Source of the DNA: a virus
Taxonomy: Duplodnaviria > Caudoviricetes
Direction: 5' to 3' (one strand)
Virus record (IMG/VR): IMGVR_UViG_3300031466_000001
Location: 32,001 to 96,000 of that record
DNA length: 64,000 nt
The notes under the pieces were generated by a model that was not told where the DNA came from, did not search any database, and worked only from the letters and a program-made list of their open reading frames with translations. Shown piece by piece: positions 5,236-53,300 of this stretch; positions within the stretch are counted from its first letter, which is position 1; every line of letters starts with the position of its first letter. The position numbers and the translations under genes were made by a program.

Positions 5236-6402
5236 ATGGATTATACGATTGATGCTCTCAATCATAGTCTGGAACTCAATAGTAGTCTTTCCGAAGCTCT
5301 TATTGAAGGGTATATGCAAATTTATAAGCAATTCACAGGTGTAGTTGAATCATATGTGTATCTGCTTGAAGCGGCAGAGGGAAACAATAATCAGAACCAG
5401 AATGCAGTTCGTACCGGTGTCAAAAAATTTAGTGTTAGAAATATCGTTGAAAAAATTAAGGAATTTTTTAAACGTATTCTTGGCACGTTTAAAGAGAAAG
5501 CACGAGCAATTGCAAAGAAGAATGAGAATTGGCTCGATTCGAATAAACAGGTTTTTGAAACCATGAGCTACGATGGTCTGCAAATTGAGATGATTCCTTT
5601 TTGGGAAATGGACCCTAGGACTATTGTCAATACGGTAAAAAATAGCGTCAATTTTGTTGCGAATGTTGTAAATGGTAATAAATTTGAAGAAAAATATAAA
5701 AATATTGAAACGGTTAAAAAAGAGCTGTTTGATTTTTATCTTGATGAGAAAGGTAATATTTCTAATGGTGCGAAGAACTATTTCAGGATTGGTAAAAGTA
5801 AAAACTCTGATGTTAAACCTGTAAGACTCGCTGGTGATGATCTTAAGAGAAGAATCCTTAACAATTTTTACCCGTACTGTAAAACGTATGAAACTGATAT
5901 TGTTAATAATTTGACCAATGCAATCAATACTTTAAATAATAGAATGGATGCTATTATTAACAGATTGGGCGGCGACAATGAAGCCACAGCAACAAAAGAA
6001 TCTTTTGTTGACGATGGTTTTATCAACGTTCTCGATTTTTCTATTCTGCTTGAGGCTGAAAGACCTGCCGCGAATGCTCAAAATAACAATAATAACCAGA
6101 ATAAATCTACAAATGATCAAGATGATAAACCTTCTCCTACAGAAGTAAAATTACAAGATAATTCAAATAATGCCGAAACCAAAGTTCGGAATGCTATTTC
6201 TGACATGTCTAGTAATAATCTGACAATTGTTAAAAATATTCTCCAATGTGAGCAAATTGTCATTGCAGCGGCTCTGACTGCCGCTGAGGAACGTTTTAAC
6301 GCATACATGAACGCAATGAGACAAATTCACGAAGCTAGGAAAGATACAGCACAATCTCAGCAGCAAGGAGAAGGAAACAATCAGAACAACCAAAAGAAAT
6401 AA
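5236..6402 (+). CDS. Internal head protein, paralog 4
   Basis: LLE/A sites, helix NIVEKIKEFFKRILGTF, N/Q-rich linkers. Confidence 0.6.
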   Translation: MDYTIDALNHSLELNSSLSEALIEGYMQIYKQFTGVVESYVYLLEAAEGNNNQNQNAVRTGVKKFSVRNIVEKIKEFFKRILGTFKEKARAIAKKNENWLDSNKQVFETMSYDGLQIEMIPFWEMDPRTIVNTVKNSVNFVANVVNGNKFEEKYKNIETVKKELFDFYLDEKGNISNGAKNYFRIGKSKNSDVKPVRLAGDDLKRRILNNFYPYCKTYETDIVNNLTNAINTLNNRMDAIINRLGGDNEATATKESFVDDGFINVLDFSILLEAERPAANAQNNNNNQNKSTNDQDDKPSPTEVKLQDNSNNAETKVRNAISDMSSNNLTIVKNILQCEQIVIAAALTAAEERFNAYMNAMRQIHEARKDTAQSQQQGEGNNQNNQKK

Positions 6403-37560: not shown

Positions 37561-38595
37561 TTACTCGACATTAAGCATCCGTTTGAAGTGATCCAGCGCA
37601 TATTGTGCTCTGGAAAGCCAGGAATTTTTCTTGGCAATAGCTTGACGTGTTACTACCTTATCCGGCGAATTTTCTCTAATTGCTTGAGAAATTACATTAA
37701 TGATATTATTTACATCTCCGAAGTAAACCACGTCGCGGAACTTTTCAAGCTCTTGCATCTTAGATGCAACAACAGGTTTACCTGCACTGAGATATTCATA
37801 ACATTTAACCGGGTCGCAACCCGAAATCATTTTGGTAAGTTTAAACGGAATAATTGCGACATCGAACCAAGAAAGATACCTCGGAAGCTCATTGTATTTC
37901 TTCATCGGTAAGGAAGTAATATTTTTATGCTCGATGGGGATATTGTAGAGGTTATTCCTGCCGATCATTACCACAGGGAAATAGTCGGCAATGGTTTTTA
38001 CCAACTCTACATCCAACCAGGTATAAATTGCTCCATAATAGCCGATAAGGAATCTATTTCCTACCGTCGGCATATCTCTAGGACGTTCCAGTCTCTTTAC
38101 AGCAGGTGAGAAATGGTCATAGTCTGCGCCATTGGGAACCAGAATTGTATTTACACCACGTCTAATATGTTCATCATAGATCACCTTAGCGCTTGCACAG
38201 GTAAGATCTGTTTTTTGCTCCATAATAGGAACTACATTTTTCCAAGCAGAAAATTCATCGGTAGCGAGATCGCACGAATCAAACACAGACAGATCGTGCG
38301 GTGTTTCGTCGATAAATTTTCCTTGATTTACAGCAGCGTAAATAACAACTTTACCCTTAATGAGATGCTTATAATCTACACCCTGCTTGACAATTGTGAA
38401 GTTTGGAAGATCCTTAAATGGTCTAACAATGTCCGGTACGTTTGGAAAGATATTTGCGGGATTGATATAAATAACATTGGCCCCTGCTTGGGCAAATGCT
38501 TTCATAAGTTGCTGAGGTCTTTGATGCATAAAGTTATAATCCATGGACGGCGGATAGATTATCGTGATGGTCTCTTTCCCCATTGGGTGATTCAC
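37561..38595 (-). CDS. GT-B glycosyltransferase (GT4/TuaH-like)
   Basis: QRPQQL, VPNGADYDHF, IGYYGAI, FDVAIIPF, DPVKCYEYLSAGKPVV. Confidence 0.9.
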   Translation of the reverse strand: MNHPMGKETITIIYPPSMDYNFMHQRPQQLMKAFAQAGANVIYINPANIFPNVPDIVRPFKDLPNFTIVKQGVDYKHLIKGKVVIYAAVNQGKFIDETPHDLSVFDSCDLATDEFSAWKNVVPIMEQKTDLTCASAKVIYDEHIRRGVNTILVPNGADYDHFSPAVKRLERPRDMPTVGNRFLIGYYGAIYTWLDVELVKTIADYFPVVMIGRNNLYNIPIEHKNITSLPMKKYNELPRYLSWFDVAIIPFKLTKMISGCDPVKCYEYLSAGKPVVASKMQELEKFRDVVYFGDVNNIINVISQAIRENSPDKVVTRQAIAKKNSWLSRAQYALDHFKRMLNVE

Positions 38596-47604: not shown

Positions 47605-47717
47605 GAATAATGTCTCGGGTTATCCCGAGACATTATTTTTTTTATTTACATAAACTCAAAGATTTTAAGTATATATTATAATAACGTAATAAATAATAAT
47701 CATATTGGAGGTATTAT

Positions 47718-50069: not shown

Positions 50070-50822
50070 ATGACTGGACAACAATCGGCAACCGAAATGA
50101 AAAAACCGAAGCTTCTTTTCGGCCAAATTCGTGAAAGAGACGATGAATATGTTGACGAGGCTTTTGTTGTAATTAAATTGACGAATAACAGCTATGTTGC
50201 CGTCAAATTGTCTGATGATGGTGAACATGGTCCTATTCGTGAATGTGAACATTTTGAAGAAGTGTTTAAAGTTGTGAATAAACGAATTTTTGCAGAATAT
50301 TGCACCATTGAAGGTTTTATGGAAGCCTTCCCAAATTTACTGAAAAAGAGAGGGAATATAGTCGAACCAGCATTTTTCTCTCTATTCAATAAGATTGTAG
50401 AAAGTGTGCTTAATGATAAAGGTTCATTCAATCGGGGGAAAAATAATGAAAATGCTCAAATAGATGTCGATATCTATTCAGTTACCTTTCATTTGAAGGG
50501 TGAAGTCGTTGAGTGTTGGTATAACGACCGTAACAAAAATAAAACTGGAAATTCTGTAGAGATACCCCTCACTGTTTTCTTGGCAAACAACATTACCAAA
50601 GATGTGACAGAGAAAATCGTTGAAAATATGAAAAAGAAAAAATATTCTATGGCATCCTTTGGTAGGAGTAAGATGAGGAACGCTGATGACGATTTCTCCA
50701 ATGCAAGAAATGTTCATTGTCGAAAGACAAATAGGGTTTTATCTGAAAGAGAAGCAGAAAATGAATTTAGATTGCCTATAGTTGAGCCCAATACCGTTTC
50801 ATTATATGAATTCTTTTCGTAA
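50070..50822 (+). CDS. Hypothetical early protein
   Basis: RBS AAGGAGG; early promoter 50024-50032. Confidence 0.65.
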   Translation: MTGQQSATEMKKPKLLFGQIRERDDEYVDEAFVVIKLTNNSYVAVKLSDDGEHGPIRECEHFEEVFKVVNKRIFAEYCTIEGFMEAFPNLLKKRGNIVEPAFFSLFNKIVESVLNDKGSFNRGKNNENAQIDVDIYSVTFHLKGEVVECWYNDRNKNKTGNSVEIPLTVFLANNITKDVTEKIVENMKKKKYSMASFGRSKMRNADDDFSNARNVHCRKTNRVLSEREAENEFRLPIVEPNTVSLYEFFS

Positions 50823-50953
50823 GAATAATGTAAAGAGATAGTACAAAAAATATTTTATGATAAGGATATAGGATTTTTACCGTATCCTTTATTTTTTTAT
50901 TTATTATATCATAATAATGAAGATAATTAATAAAAAAATTAGGAGGTTAAAAA

Positions 50954-51180
50954 ATGGCTTTCAAAGGTTATAATACTATACAAGAATTACTGGAAAAGGA
51001 CAGGACTACACGGACGGAGAAATTATCAAAATATGGGAAGCAATTAAATACTGCTTAAAAGAAAAGTTGTATTCTTTGGATGAACCGTATGATACGGTAT
51101 ATTTCCCCGGTGTTACTATGGGTGATTGGGTGGAAGCGGTATATTGTGAAATGGAAAGAAGAAAATTAAAGGTCTCATGA
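50954..51180 (+). pseudogene. Small early gene with 1-nt frameshift (or -1 recoding)
   Basis: RBS AGGAGG; MAFKGYNTIQELLEK then the -1 frame GQDYTDGEIIKIWEAIK...LKVS*; junction GGAAAAG. Confidence 0.55.
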
Positions 51181-51237
51181 CCTTTTTTTTATTTCTATCT
51201 TTTATTTTTTTTTTCACTAAAAAATAATTAAATTAAA

Positions 51238-51249
51238 AACATAAAGGTA
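51238..51249 (+). promoter_or_regulatory. Late promoter AACA-N6-TA with no downstream ORF
   Basis: AACA taaagg TA. Confidence 0.7.
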
Positions 51250-51317
51250 ATTATCCCAACCCATCCCCAACCCCCCTCAAAGCGGATGCACTCAAATGTG
51301 CATCCGCAATTTTTTTT
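51249..51317 (+). ncRNA. Predicted ~69-nt C-rich late small RNA
   Basis: Late promoter, single-stranded C-rich body (ATCCCAACCC ATCCCCAACCCCCC), then 10-bp hairpin GCGGATGCAC/GTGCATCCGC plus T8. Confidence 0.6.
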
Positions 51318-51348
51318 GTTAAAAAGGTATATTTTTGGAATATAAATT

Positions 51349-51357
51349 ATATATTAT
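51349..51357 (+). promoter_or_regulatory. Early promoter motif ATATATTAT facing the GC-rich insert
   Basis: Exact motif; no RBS-led ORF follows on the + strand. Confidence 0.55.
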
Positions 51358-51377
51358 ATTTTTGGAAATACTTATTT

Positions 51378-52052
51378 GGTATAAAGTCCTGCGGCTCGTA
51401 GGGCCGACGGCGCCGCTTTTGGTCGCGGTTCGCATTCGCAACCGTCGACGCGATGAGGCCAGCGCGCGCCCAGCCCTCAAGGCTAAAGTGCGGATCGCTG
51501 ATCAGACCGCCGAGATCGCCGCTGCCGAATTGATCCACGAACCACTTCGGCGCCGGCACGTGCTCAGTCAGCGATTCGGCGATTGCTATTTTCTTCGAAT
51601 CAATTTAGTGTTCTTATCCCAATTTTCCATTTGCTTTTTTATAGAATCAAAACGTTCATCCTGTTCTTTTGAAAACTTTTCGAATTTCTCAATATCATCC
51701 ATAACTTTCTTGTGCACAAACCCTATGAATTGTTTGGTTTTAGAGAACATGCGAAATGCCTCCTTTTTCTGAACTTTATTATACGCAAAAAGTATTAATT
51801 ATACCACTGTCAAACAACCCCGCCCAGCCACACGGCCAGGCGGGGTTTCTTCCCGTTCACTTCCCGATGATGTTTTTCGTTCCACTCCAAAGCCCCATCG
51901 CGCTGAACGCCATGACAAAACCGGCCAGTACAGCGTATTTCGGATCGTCCGGCGCCACGTACACGAACTCGGCGATCTGGTCAGTCGCGCGGATCAGGTT
52001 TCGATGCACCGCCTCCGCGAGCTTCACAGCGGCCGCCGGGCGGGTGGTGTAT
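51378..52052 (-). mobile_element. Foreign GC-rich mosaic of temperate-phage fragments
   Basis: Abrupt GC rise. Minus-strand pieces: amidase-like ~51983-52051, holin C-terminus 51857-~51982, terminator 51815-51851, 54-aa gene, lysin C-terminal-like ~51468-51585, tail-chaperone-like ~51378-51468. Confidence 0.7.
51586..51750 (-). CDS. 54-aa moron-like protein inside the foreign insert
   Basis: RBS AAAGGAGG; MFSKTKQFIGFVHKKVMDDIEKFEKFSKEQDERFDSIKKQMENWDKNTKLIRRK*; host-type TGnTATAAT upstream. Confidence 0.7.
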   Translation of the reverse strand: MFSKTKQFIGFVHKKVMDDIEKFEKFSKEQDERFDSIKKQMENWDKNTKLIRRK

Positions 52053-52073
52053 ACTATTAGTCCAAATTAGTAA

Positions 52074-52112
52074 AAAATAAAGGGATGGTTAATATACCAT
52101 CCTTTATTTTTT
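52074..52112. terminator. Bidirectional terminator
   Basis: AAAAATAAAGGGATGGT/ACCATCCTTTATTTTT near-perfect inverted repeat. Confidence 0.8.
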
Positions 52113-52563
52113 ATGTTAGCCGCATTTTATTCTTATACATAAATTCTTTTCTTACAAAATAACTATGTTCCTGAAGTTTATTTCGAATATCTTCAGGTAT
52201 AGCTTGGTTTTTACTGACCATTTCATAAACAGCAATGATAGTATCAAACATAACATTTGCCGCTTCAAATGCTTCCTTAGAAGTATAATTTCTATCTGCA
52301 TCGGCTATAAAATATTTAAATAACGAATCTTTTTCCAAAACATCTAATGCAAAACTATAGCTAACGGGATTTGTATTTAATTGAATACAAATTTCAGCAA
52401 CTTCATCTACAAATTCATTTAATTTTTTTGCATACTCGTCAAATACTGAATGTGTAGGATCAAAATCCGTTCCGGTCACTTTCCAATGAAGAACCTTCAT
52501 GTTGTGAGCGTACACGACAAGTACAGACAAAAGACGTTGAATTGGATTAAACATTTTTTTCAT
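52111..52563 (-). CDS. dps: Dps/ferritin-like protein
   Basis: LHWKVTGTDFDPTH...VDEVAE ferroxidase motifs. Confidence 0.8.
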   Translation of the reverse strand: MKKMFNPIQRLLSVLVVYAHNMKVLHWKVTGTDFDPTHSVFDEYAKKLNEFVDEVAEICIQLNTNPVSYSFALDVLEKDSLFKYFIADADRNYTSKEAFEAANVMFDTIIAVYEMVSKNQAIPEDIRNKLQEHSYFVRKEFMYKNKMRLT

Positions 52564-52574
52564 CCTCCATTTTA

Positions 52575-53300
52575 TTATGCAATTACAAATTGATCCACGT
52601 CAAGATGGAATACATCTTTCCATCTCTCGATGAGATCTTTTCTTTCGCTTTCAGCATTCGACCATTCATCAATCTTCAAACTAAAGTTACCGTATGCCGT
52701 TTGAATATCAGTATAATGCTTCATTGCATTATATAAAAATATCTTTACGTCAAGAAGGGCTAATTCATAGAAAGATTGCCAAGTCGAATTAGAAATAGAT
52801 GCGAAATTGTCTAGATGTTGTAATGCAAATTCAATCTTAAGTTCATCTGCAATGGTAGTTAAATTATATAAGTATAAGAGATTGGGATGTCTAAATTTGA
52901 ATGTGAAAGAAGGAGTCGAAATAGATTGAAGGTTTGCATATGCTTGAGTTAACATGAGATCATTATATGCGTAATAGTCTGCTGTTAATTCGGGACTAAA
53001 GTATCCATTTCCGAGCATTTTATTACGCGGAGTAATCTTTCTAATATAAAGAATTTTATTGTCGCCAAAAATATCAGGTAATTCATAGATAGATTCTTGA
53101 TAGTCGGTCTTTAGTGCTCTCATTTCCTTCAAATTCATATCCACTTCAAGTATATACGGAGAATAAGTGCTAAAAACAGGGAGAGTTTTTATTCTAAGAA
53201 CATTGATGATGGCTTCATCTTCTTTTTCAAACGGAATCACCAATCCGTAAATTCCTAAATCAATTTTTATAGACGTTAAAAGGTCACTTGTGTTGAGCAT
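52575..53300 (-). CDS. Probable neck protein (T4 gp13-like)
   Basis: 'LLTSIKIDLG' N-terminus; next to the prohead protease; late promoter 53327-53338. Confidence 0.5.
   Translation of the reverse strand: MLNTSDLLTSIKIDLGIYGLVIPFEKEDEAIINVLRIKTLPVFSTYSPYILEVDMNLKEMRALKTDYQESIYELPDIFGDNKILYIRKITPRNKMLGNGYFSPELTADYYAYNDLMLTQAYANLQSISTPSFTFKFRHPNLLYLYNLTTIADELKIEFALQHLDNFASISNSTWQSFYELALLDVKIFLYNAMKHYTDIQTAYGNFSLKIDEWSNAESERKDLIERWKDVFHLDVDQFVIA

What the first reader, a model, noticed from the sequence alone, without database searches (positions are those of the whole stretch)
51349..52112. Scrambled temperate-phage gene fragments lying antisense to an early promoter
Seen: ~675 bp of foreign DNA, GC-rich apart from the small gene, in an AT-rich genome. 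All pieces read on the minus strand: YTTRPAAAVKLAEAVHRNLIRAT (Amidase_3-like), FVYVAPDDPKYAVLAGFVMAFSAMGLWSGTKNIIGK* (holin C-terminus), terminator, 54-aa gene, PAPKWFVDQFGSGDLGGLISDPHFSLEGW (lysin C-terminal-like), RAGLIASTVANANRD...PYEPQDFIP (tail-assembly-chaperone-like). The pieces are ~70-130 bp, not in native order, and have no repeats between them. An exact early motif (51349-51357) on the + strand points into the block and a terminator closes it at 52074. Inference: a repeat-less array giving a multi-target antisense RNA against a resident prophage's lysis and tail mRNAs (phage-phage interference). Simpler alternative: a microhomology/template-switch capture scar that replaced an early gene.
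Basis: partly seen in the sequence, partly recalled or inferred. Interest (0 to 1): 0.8.

Follow-up and report, generated by a model that had tools for sequence, protein, structure and literature searches.

The report
Captured temperate-phage moron with flanking debris
An AT-rich jumbo phage related to Bacillus phage AR9 carries 677 bp of GC-rich DNA from temperate phages, made of one intact small gene flanked by four dead gene fragments, and this is most likely ordinary gene capture that replaced an early gene, not a purpose-built antisense weapon.

Summary
Window 51378-52054 is foreign DNA in a 36% GC AR9-like jumbo phage.

Read on the minus strand, it contains:
- an internal Amidase_3 fragment (96% DNA identity to a temperate-phage contig);
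- a holin C-terminus plus terminator (95%);
- an intact 54-aa gene with its promoter (98.9%);
- the C-terminal tail of a glucosaminidase-type endolysin (97%);
- a Phage_tail_T fragment (about 89%).

It is not an assembly chimera. The same block sits at the same locus in at least 9 independent metagenome assemblies.

"Scrambled" is overstated. Amidase, holin, terminator and 54-aa gene are contiguous in natural temperate phages (L122, L121). The full order also fits the circular map of this phage group.

The 54-aa gene belongs to a 272-bp terminator-promoter-gene module. That module is found behind different lysis genes in several temperate phages and is under purifying selection (dN/dS about 0.1).

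The AR9-type early promoter pointing into the block is real in the window. It is deleted in one natural clade and point-mutated in another, while the block itself stays unchanged. A distant relative has an ordinary convergent gene at this position.

Best reading (0.72): capture of a moron with passenger debris, which replaced an early gene and left an orphan promoter. A functional multi-target antisense RNA is not excluded (about 0.07).

The parts
51345..51364 (+). AR9-type early (virion RNA polymerase) promoter-like site, AATTATATATTAT-N6-G, with predicted +1 at G 51364. It now has no ORF behind it.
   Evidence: The AR9 early consensus is AAATATATATTAT-(6N)-G (PMC5312081). The 9-mer core occurs 9 times in the window against 2.6 expected, and 8 of 9 sites have G after N6. 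The core is lost in clade B and mutated in clade C.
51328..51367 (.). Two 13-bp direct repeats (TATATTTTTGGAA, at 51328-51340 and 51355-51367). The 27-bp deletion between them in L032/L034/L038 removes the promoter core.
   Evidence: Repeats. Deletion.
51378..51467 (-). Internal fragment (about 30 codons) of a tail assembly chaperone T-domain gene (Phage_tail_T).
   Evidence: blastn gives 85-89.5% identity to L008-L015, with a sharp end at 51378. Pfam Phage_tail_T scores 4.9e-5 on the fragment and 1.3e-21 on the donor ORF just upstream of a tape-measure gene.
51457..51568 (-). C-terminal tail fragment (about 37 codons, lacking the last ~10) of a glucosaminidase or Amidase_2 type endolysin.
   Evidence: 97.2% identity to L131 and 91% to L003/L130. 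In the donors this is the extreme C-terminus of Glucosaminidase or Amidase_2 lysins.
51569..51575 (.). Junction or filler between the lysin fragment and the 3' boundary of the moron module.
   Evidence: No donor homology on either side.
51576..51847 (-). 272-bp moron module: terminator hairpin (51816-51847), promoter region with TGGTATAAT (around 51800), RBS, and the 54-aa ORF (51586-51750).
   Evidence: 97-98.9% identical, with the same two boundaries, in L121 and L123-L129 behind different lysis genes. A 75%-identical module in L142 has the same boundaries, with dN/dS 0.10. The protein models as one long helix with pLDDT 90.8.
51848..51980 (-). C-terminal 41 codons plus stop of an 80-aa holin-like gene that lies next to the amidase in the donors.
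   Evidence: Part of a 171-bp, 95.3% match to L001 (51811-51980). Contiguous with the moron module in L122 (404 bp, 91.3%). Family assignment is weak: Pfam Hol44-like at 0.006-0.007, below cut-off, and phrog_1299 holin at 0.0097.
51979..52054 (-). Internal fragment (about 24 codons) of an Amidase_3 endolysin, fused in frame to the holin fragment.
   Evidence: 96% identity to L016/L121 and 90% to L002. The donor ORFs score about 1e-50 for Amidase_3.
52071..52113 (.). Native bidirectional terminator shared by the Dps/ferritin-like gene (52111-52563, minus strand) and the former plus-strand early unit.
   Evidence: The distant relative L040 has the equivalent hairpin between its Dps-like gene and a convergent gene.

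Best explanation
The block is a horizontal-transfer scar whose only working cargo is a moron.

Proposed history: a temperate siphophage of a GC-rich Bacillales host (Paenibacillaceae/Thermoactinomycetaceae-like) shared a cell with this AR9-like jumbo phage. Illegitimate, short-homology recombination then put a piece of its DNA between the leader of a jumbo-phage early transcription unit (14 nt after the predicted +1) and that unit's terminator, removing the native early gene.

What the inserted DNA carries:
- The selected part is a 272-bp autonomous module (terminator, host-type promoter, RBS, 54-aa single-helix protein). This module also moves among temperate phages.
- The amidase, holin, lysin-tail and tail_T pieces are untranslatable passenger debris from the same kind of donor genome. 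They were left by internal deletions or by template jumps along one donor molecule.

The early promoter was left pointing into the block, convergent with the moron. It is now an orphan and is being lost in the population.

Shown: the foreign origin and identity of every piece; the junction positions; presence in many independent assemblies; loss of the promoter in two clades; purifying selection on the 54-aa gene.

Inferred: a single donor; the recombination mechanism; that a native gene was replaced; that the debris has no function.
For: 1. Every piece has a temperate-phage source at 85-99% DNA identity, with sharp boundaries.
2. Window 51576-51979 is contiguous in L122 (404 bp, 91.3%). Amidase -> holin -> terminator is native in L001, and amidase -> terminator -> 54-aa gene is native in L121.
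3. The 99%-complete provirus G003 has the order tail_T (29.1 kb) ... lysin -> same terminator (38.15 kb) -> moron -> glucosaminidase lysin with the C-tail (40.3 kb, end of the provirus). The window order therefore needs only deletions on a circular or concatemeric donor.
4. The 272-bp module keeps the same ends in at least 5 different contexts. dN/dS is 0.10 against the 75%-identical copy.
5. At least 9 independent assemblies carry the identical architecture at 97.7-100% identity.
6. The promoter core is removed by a 27-bp deletion between 13-bp repeats in clade B and hit by a T->A change in clade C. Background is about 1 event per 175-220 bp, so a joint chance of roughly 0.01 (post hoc). The early sites at 47671 and 50024 are exact in clade B.
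7. The distant relative L040 has a convergent gene of at least 99 aa next to the shared terminator where the window has the block. That gene has no homolog in the window.
8. The chimeric ORFs have no RBS and are not found elsewhere. No Rfam family matches.
Against: - No single sampled donor contains all pieces at high identity. The donor map is a composite of L122, L121, L131 and G003.
- The lysin/tail_T and moron/lysin junctions were not found in any donor.
- With only three independent units, co-orientation plus cyclic collinearity has a chance probability of about 1/8, so it does not prove a one-molecule origin.
- The insertion leaves the promoter and terminator precisely intact. All target-gene pieces lie antisense to the promoter, as an expression cassette would be built.
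- Exact complementarity of 29-81 nt to sampled temperate phages exists, so an RNA effect is physically possible.
- The block shows no faster decay than its flanks, but there are only 2 SNPs per clade, too few to judge.
- Evidence that a native gene was replaced rests on one 1.1-kb contig from a distant relative.
Confidence: 0.72

Rival explanations
1. In phages with the intact promoter, the virion RNA polymerase makes an early chimeric RNA of about 740 nt that is antisense to amidase, holin, endolysin and tail-chaperone mRNAs of resident or co-infecting temperate phages. The RNA blocks premature prophage-driven lysis or competition.
For: - A strong AR9-type early motif lies 14 nt before the block, and a terminator lies just after it.
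- All target pieces are antisense to the promoter.
- Exact matches of 29, 54, 81 and 43 nt exist to sampled temperate phages.
- Related temperate phages occur in the same samples as the jumbo phage: 3300031176, 3300031182, 3300031468, 3300033753.
Against: - The promoter is lost or mutated in 2 of 3 natural clades while the block is kept.
- Content is identical in all variants and there is no second example.
- Most of the block is a collinear donor segment with an intact gene on the other strand.
- The pieces are internal or 3'-terminal, not start regions.
- Co-orientation is expected for one-molecule capture (about 1/4 by chance even for independent units).
Confidence: 0.07
2. The retained arrangement is a cis-regulatory one. 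Early transcription from 51364 runs convergently through the captured 54-aa gene and delays or silences it, by transcriptional interference or cis-antisense RNA. The debris is only spacer.
For: The promoter and the moron are convergent and about 390 nt apart. AR9 is reported to have antisense transcripts (PMC5312081). Natural loss of the promoter in two clades could be adaptive de-repression.
Against: No transcription data exist. Promoter loss is explained equally well by neutral decay. Nothing shows that the moron needs timing control.
Confidence: 0.1
3. The patchwork was already assembled in a decayed prophage or other element of the host, and moved into the jumbo phage en bloc in a single two-ended event. 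This gives the same functional reading as the best explanation but a different building history.
For: Prophage right ends accumulate lysis-gene debris and morons. One junction (amidase/holin) is a simple 0.55-kb deletion in a native arrangement.
Against: The junction 25-mers for amidase/holin and lysin/tail_T have no hit in IMG/VR. Four metagenome contigs with the lysin piece show only intact lysins. The GTDB representatives hold no 54-aa homolog. All of this is absence of evidence only.
Confidence: 0.15
4. Assembly chimera between a jumbo-phage contig and temperate-phage reads.
For: The window comes from a metagenome-type assembly. Two IMG/VR contigs of the same phage end shortly before the block, at window 47507 and about 50783. 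One low-coverage contig (L029) is chimeric-looking inside the block.
Against: The same five junctions occur in at least 9 assemblies from different samples and two archives, at 97.7-100% identity and with clade-specific SNPs. Junction homologies are far shorter than assembler k-mers.
Confidence: 0.01

Closest known systems
Morons of temperate phages (Hendrix/Juhala sense: an extra transcription unit with its own promoter and terminator, inserted between conserved genes and differing in composition). This comparison is from my own knowledge of the concept.
   Same: The 272-bp unit has a terminator, a host-type -10 region, an RBS and one small ORF. Its GC content (about 30%) differs from its GC-rich temperate hosts. 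It occurs behind different lysis genes with identical boundaries.
   Different: Here the moron sits in a virulent-type AR9-like jumbo phage that uses its own RNA polymerases. It arrived with four dead fragments of donor structural and lysis genes.
Illegitimate or microhomology-mediated recombination scars and template-switch (MMBIR/copy-choice) patchworks that generate phage mosaicism (own knowledge).
   Same: Five novel joints with at most short, imperfect homology (for example GGCC at amidase/holin and about 13 of 18 nt at lysin/tail_T). The patches are short (71-400 bp), co-oriented and from one genome type. There are no site-specific recombination signatures.
   Different: The mechanism cannot be established from sequence. 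Two joints have unknown partners, and collinearity would also fit a larger insertion trimmed by deletions.
Virus-borne mini-CRISPR arrays, and regulatory antisense RNAs used in phage-phage interference such as P1/P7 c4 (own knowledge).
   Same: Captured pieces of a competitor's genes placed behind a promoter would give sequence-specific interference.
   Different: There are no repeats, no cas context and no conserved RNA structure. The promoter is not conserved, and there is no variation in 'spacer' content. No family membership can be claimed.
AR9 early promoters recognised by the virion RNA polymerase (PMC5312081).
   Same: The core ATATATTAT, the 6-nt spacer and G at +1 are present. The motif is enriched in the window and usually precedes RBS-ORF units.
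   Different: This copy has no ORF behind it. It has T instead of A at consensus position 3 (two other sites in this phage share that). It is polymorphic in the population.

Membership tests
Moron (autonomous inserted transcription unit) | A discrete unit with the same boundaries in different genomic contexts, absent from relatives | tested here: met
   Window 51576-51847 matches L121 and L123-L129 at 97-98.9% with identical ends, behind Amidase_3, holin or Peptidase_M23 genes. L142 has the same ends at 75%. L001, L002 and G003 lack it.
Moron (autonomous inserted transcription unit) | Own terminator and own promoter | tested here: inconclusive
   A conserved GC hairpin at 51816-51847 was seen, but with a weak T-run. 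TGGTATAAT, an extended -10-like element, was read by eye from the sequence. The sigma-70 scan did not call it. There are no transcript data.
Moron (autonomous inserted transcription unit) | Encodes a real, selected product | tested here: met
   dN/dS is 0.10 against L142, and the 54-aa length is conserved. It models confidently as a single helix. The family is tiny, 4 clusters, and the function is unknown.
Trans-acting multi-target antisense RNA | A promoter that is conserved wherever the element is kept | tested here: not met
   27-bp deletion of the core in L032/L034/L038. T->A in the core in L035. The block is unchanged.
Trans-acting multi-target antisense RNA | Extended complementarity to the target mRNAs | tested here: met
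   Longest exact matches to sampled temperate phages are 29 nt (tail_T), 54 nt (lysin), 81 nt (holin) and 43 nt (amidase).
Trans-acting multi-target antisense RNA | The transcript exists and affects the targets | not testable with these tools
   No RNA data are available, and the host is uncultured or unknown.
CRISPR-like mini-array | Direct repeats separating the captured pieces | tested here: not met
   Only a 13-bp promoter-region repeat and one chance 12-mer were found.
AR9-type early promoter | Consensus AAATATATATTAT-(6N)-G | tested here: met
   12 of 13 consensus positions plus N6-G at 51345-51364. The core is enriched, 9 sites against 2.6 expected. The nearest cultured relatives of the phage are AR9/PBS1, at 36% aa identity for the helicase. 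Activity was not tested.
Microhomology-mediated template-switch scar | Short homology or templated filler at each novel joint | tested here: inconclusive
   Amidase/holin: GGCC, with one change. Lysin/tail_T: imperfect homology over about 18 nt plus a 1-nt insertion. Amidase/jumbo: at most 1-2 nt. The other joints lack a known partner sequence.

The most novel reading that the evidence does not exclude
In the clade with the intact early promoter, the jumbo phage makes an early chimeric RNA of about 740 nt from captured DNA. This RNA both silences its own captured moron and forms 29-81-bp perfect duplexes with lysis and tail mRNAs of co-resident temperate phages. It would be a repeat-less, RNA-based form of phage-against-prophage interference that arose by co-option of a capture scar.
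Probability: 0.07. Interest if true: 0.8.

Novelty: new member of a known kind. Interest (0 to 1): 0.3.

Why it matters
- It documents recent DNA flow from GC-rich temperate siphophages into an AR9-like jumbo phage, with every joint mapped and natural variants available.
- It shows an orphaned virion-RNA-polymerase promoter decaying in a wild population.
- It identifies a 272-bp small-gene module that hops between lysis cassettes and into a jumbo phage.
- It does not, on present evidence, reveal a new interference mechanism. If the antisense RNA were shown to act, it would be a new way for phages to fight prophages.

Tried and rejected
- DNA searches of GenBank phages with the block and with 16 kb around it found nothing.
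- The window's own assembly is not held. G001 is a 29-kb fragment identical to window 18460-47507 and stops short of the locus.
- The Dps-like protein and the helicase found no informative relatives in IMG/VR. Only one distant Dps-like relative exists, on a 1.1-kb contig.
- The 54-aa protein has no relative in the GTDB representative genomes. The donor amidase reaches only 53-73% aa identity there (Paenibacillus, Brevibacillus, Cohnella, Thermoactinomycetaceae MAGs), so the host is inferred only broadly.
- Junction 25-mers gave no hit in IMG/VR.
- The metagenome scan with a lysin-internal 30-mer returned four intact-lysin contexts. It did not return the jumbo contigs, which are apparently withheld, so there was no internal positive control.
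- Rfam gave only sub-threshold noise. PADLOC gave nothing meaningful.
- I tried to link the L016-type tail fibre to a foreign fibre cassette that other readers noted elsewhere in this genome. The records are not held, and the 'longer' protein search was swamped by repeat-domain fibres.
- Contig L029 leaves the block at 51550 and enters a 70% GC glycosyltransferase. Its coverage is 1.5x, so I treated it as a probable chimera rather than a variant.

Full report
**What the window is.** The window is an AT-rich phage (mean GC 0.36). Around the finding it encodes an SF2 helicase, a prohead protease, a DUF7484 virion protein and a Dps/ferritin-like protein. The nearest cultured relatives by helicase are the Bacillus jumbo phages AR9, PBS1, Goe21 and Internexus, at about 36% aa identity. 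The 54-aa protein of the finding occurs on contigs of up to 212 kb. The phage also uses the AR9 early-promoter grammar. AR9's consensus is AAATATATATTAT-(6N)-G (PMC5312081). The core ATATATTAT occurs 9 times in the window against 2.6 expected, and 8 of 9 sites have G after the 6-nt spacer. Most sites precede an RBS and ORF.

**Checking the observation.**
- GC rises to 0.58-0.63 in two stretches on either side of an AT-rich 54-aa ORF.
- Degenerate-pattern scans of IMG/VR, exact-protein look-ups and one metagenome scan recovered sources for every piece. blastn then fixed the boundaries.

| Piece | Window coordinates | Best DNA identity |
|---|---|---|
| Phage_tail_T fragment | 51378-51467 | 85-89.5%, L008-L015 |
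| Endolysin C-terminal tail | 51457-51568 | 97.2% L131, 91% L003 |
| Terminator-promoter-54-aa module | 51576-51847 | 98.9% L121/L016 |
| Holin C-terminus with terminator | 51811-51980 | 95.3% L001 |
| Amidase_3 internal fragment | 51979/51984-52054 | 96% L016/L121 |

Pfam on the donor ORFs confirms Phage_tail_T (1.3e-21, just upstream of a tape-measure gene), Amidase_3 (about 1e-50), and Glucosaminidase or Amidase_2 lysins that share the C-tail. The holin assignment is weak and rests on size, position and sub-threshold hits.

**Not an artefact.** An exact-sequence look-up of the 54-aa protein returned 16 contigs. The ten shown include nine (L030-L038) from different JGI and ENA samples with the same neighbours (protease, DUF7484, Dps-like | block | 34-aa, 250-aa, helicase). 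They are 97.7-100% identical to the window across 50800-52700 and carry all five junctions. They fall into three clades separated by about 0.4-0.8% divergence. Junction homologies are a few bases long, far below assembler k-mers. Assembly chimera is excluded.

**Order of the pieces.** The block is less scrambled than it looked.
- In L001, an Amidase_3 gene is followed directly by the 80-aa holin and the same terminator.
- In L121/L016, the amidase is followed by that terminator and the 54-aa gene.
- In L122, amidase, holin, terminator and 54-aa gene are contiguous, and window 51576-51979 aligns to it in one 404-bp piece.

So 51576-52054 is one native donor segment with a single in-frame deletion of about 0.55 kb between the amidase and the holin. 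That junction sits at a GGCC shared by both genes. A 99%-complete provirus from one of the samples that also contains the jumbo phage (G003, sample 3300031176) shows the rest of the map. The tail_T gene is at 29.1 kb. A lysin is followed by the same terminator at 38.15 kb, then a moron, and then a glucosaminidase lysin with the C-tail at the very end of the provirus. On a circular or concatemeric genome of this type, the window order (amidase, holin, terminator, moron, lysin tail, tail_T, all on one strand) is collinear and needs only deletions or forward template jumps. With only three truly independent units, this agreement has a chance probability of about 1/8. It removes the need for scrambling but does not prove a single event. 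The lysin/tail_T joint lies in about 18 nt of imperfect homology (both proteins read W-R-A there) with a 1-nt insertion. The moron/lysin joint has about 7 nt of unassigned filler. No donor with these two joints was found.

**The cargo.** The 272-bp module has the same two ends wherever it occurs. It is found behind Amidase_3, holin, Peptidase_M23 and other genes in at least five temperate contexts at 97-99% identity. It also occurs at 75% identity in L142. Between the window and L142, dN/dS is 0.10 and the length is conserved. AlphaFold2 models a single long helix spanning residues 2-53 with pLDDT 90.8. The family has only four clusters among 5.8 billion proteins, and no Pfam, PHROG or PADLOC assignment is credible. 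This is a classical moron in form. Its function is unknown; I infer that it is the part of the block that selection retains.

**The insertion site.**
- The predicted +1 of the early promoter is G 51364, and foreign DNA begins at 51378.
- Native sequence resumes at 52055, 16 nt before the bidirectional terminator at 52071-52113 that also ends the Dps-like gene.
- In the only more distant relative found (L040, Dps-like protein 62% identical), the equivalent hairpin is followed by a convergent gene of at least 99 aa. That gene has no homolog in the window.

The simplest reading is that the block replaced the body of an early gene.

**Test of the antisense idea.** If the plus-strand RNA mattered, its promoter should be kept.
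- Clade B (L032, L034, L038) has lost 27 bp between two 13-bp direct repeats, which removes the motif core.
- Clade C (L035) has T->A inside the core.
- Only clade A, which includes the window, has the motif intact.

Background change is one event per 175-220 bp. Two independent hits on a 20-bp element have a joint chance of roughly 0.01, though this is a post hoc calculation. The two other early sites covered in clade B are exact. The block itself is invariant apart from two SNPs per clade, and its fragment content never varies. There are no repeats and no Rfam family. The fragments are internal or 3'-terminal parts of their genes, not start regions.

In favour of the idea, exact matches of 29-81 nt to sampled temperate phages exist, and such phages co-occur with the jumbo phage in at least four samples. 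An RNA effect in clade A is therefore physically possible, and I leave it at about 7%. A more modest possibility, about 10%, is that convergent early transcription modulates the captured moron.

**Context from the scan.** Other first-stage notes, which are unchecked, describe a GC-rich foreign tail-fibre cassette with prophage debris and microhomology joints elsewhere in this genome. That would fit a phage that repeatedly picks up temperate-phage DNA. I could not test this.

**Verdict.** The interpretation as a built antisense array is not supported. This is a new instance of a known kind of event. Interest is modest: 0.3.

Noticed in passing
window 51328-51367; L032, L034, L038, L035: The orphan early promoter is polymorphic. 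One clade has a 27-bp deletion between 13-bp direct repeats, and another has a T->A change at 51354. Other early promoters in the same clade are intact.
   Followed up: yes
window 51576-51847; L121-L129, L142: The 272-bp terminator-promoter-54-aa module has identical boundaries behind different lysis genes in several temperate phages, so it behaves as a discrete mobile cassette. In L122, L124, L127 and L142, a convergent DUF6414 gene overlaps its 3' end.
   Followed up: partly
window 51816-51847; L001 ~6140-6180, L002 6459-6489, L016 4904-4940, G003 38148-38187: The same GC-rich terminator hairpin (95-100% identical over 31-40 bp) follows different lysis genes in otherwise diverged temperate phages. 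It may be a recombination hotspot that marks the left edge of moron insertions.
   Followed up: partly
window 51979-51984 and 51457-51467: Both internal fusion joints (amidase/holin and lysin/tail_T) keep the donor reading frames in phase, giving stop-free chimeric frames of 68 and 83 codons. No RBS or plausible start is present. The chance of both being in phase is about 1/9.
   Followed up: partly
L029 (ERZ858469 NODE_12171, 2383 bp, cov 1.6): This contig matches window 52197-51550 at 98.6% and then continues into a 63-73% GC glycosyltransferase gene. It is probably a low-coverage assembly chimera, but a different recombinant is not excluded.
   Followed up: partly
G001 (= window 18460-47507) and L039 (ends near window 50783): Two IMG/VR contigs of the same phage break within 4 kb upstream of the block. 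This may be because sequence shared with temperate phages tangles the assembly graphs.
   Followed up: no
L016 2169-3200: The tail-fibre-like ORF of the L016 temperate contig contains the peptide GLGNVQNYGIAT. Another first-stage note quotes the same peptide at the start of a GC-rich foreign fibre cassette elsewhere in this jumbo genome. The same donor lineage may therefore have contributed twice.
   Followed up: partly
window 51238-51317: A late-type AACA-N6-TA motif is followed by a C-rich stretch and a strong terminator with no ORF, immediately upstream of the orphan early promoter. Another reader noted it as a small RNA.
   Followed up: no
L141/L140 (G003 37.4-40.4 kb): This provirus carries two different lysins (Rv2525c-like glycoside hydrolase and glucosaminidase) separated by a DUF4352 moron and a 196-aa ORF.
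   Followed up: partly
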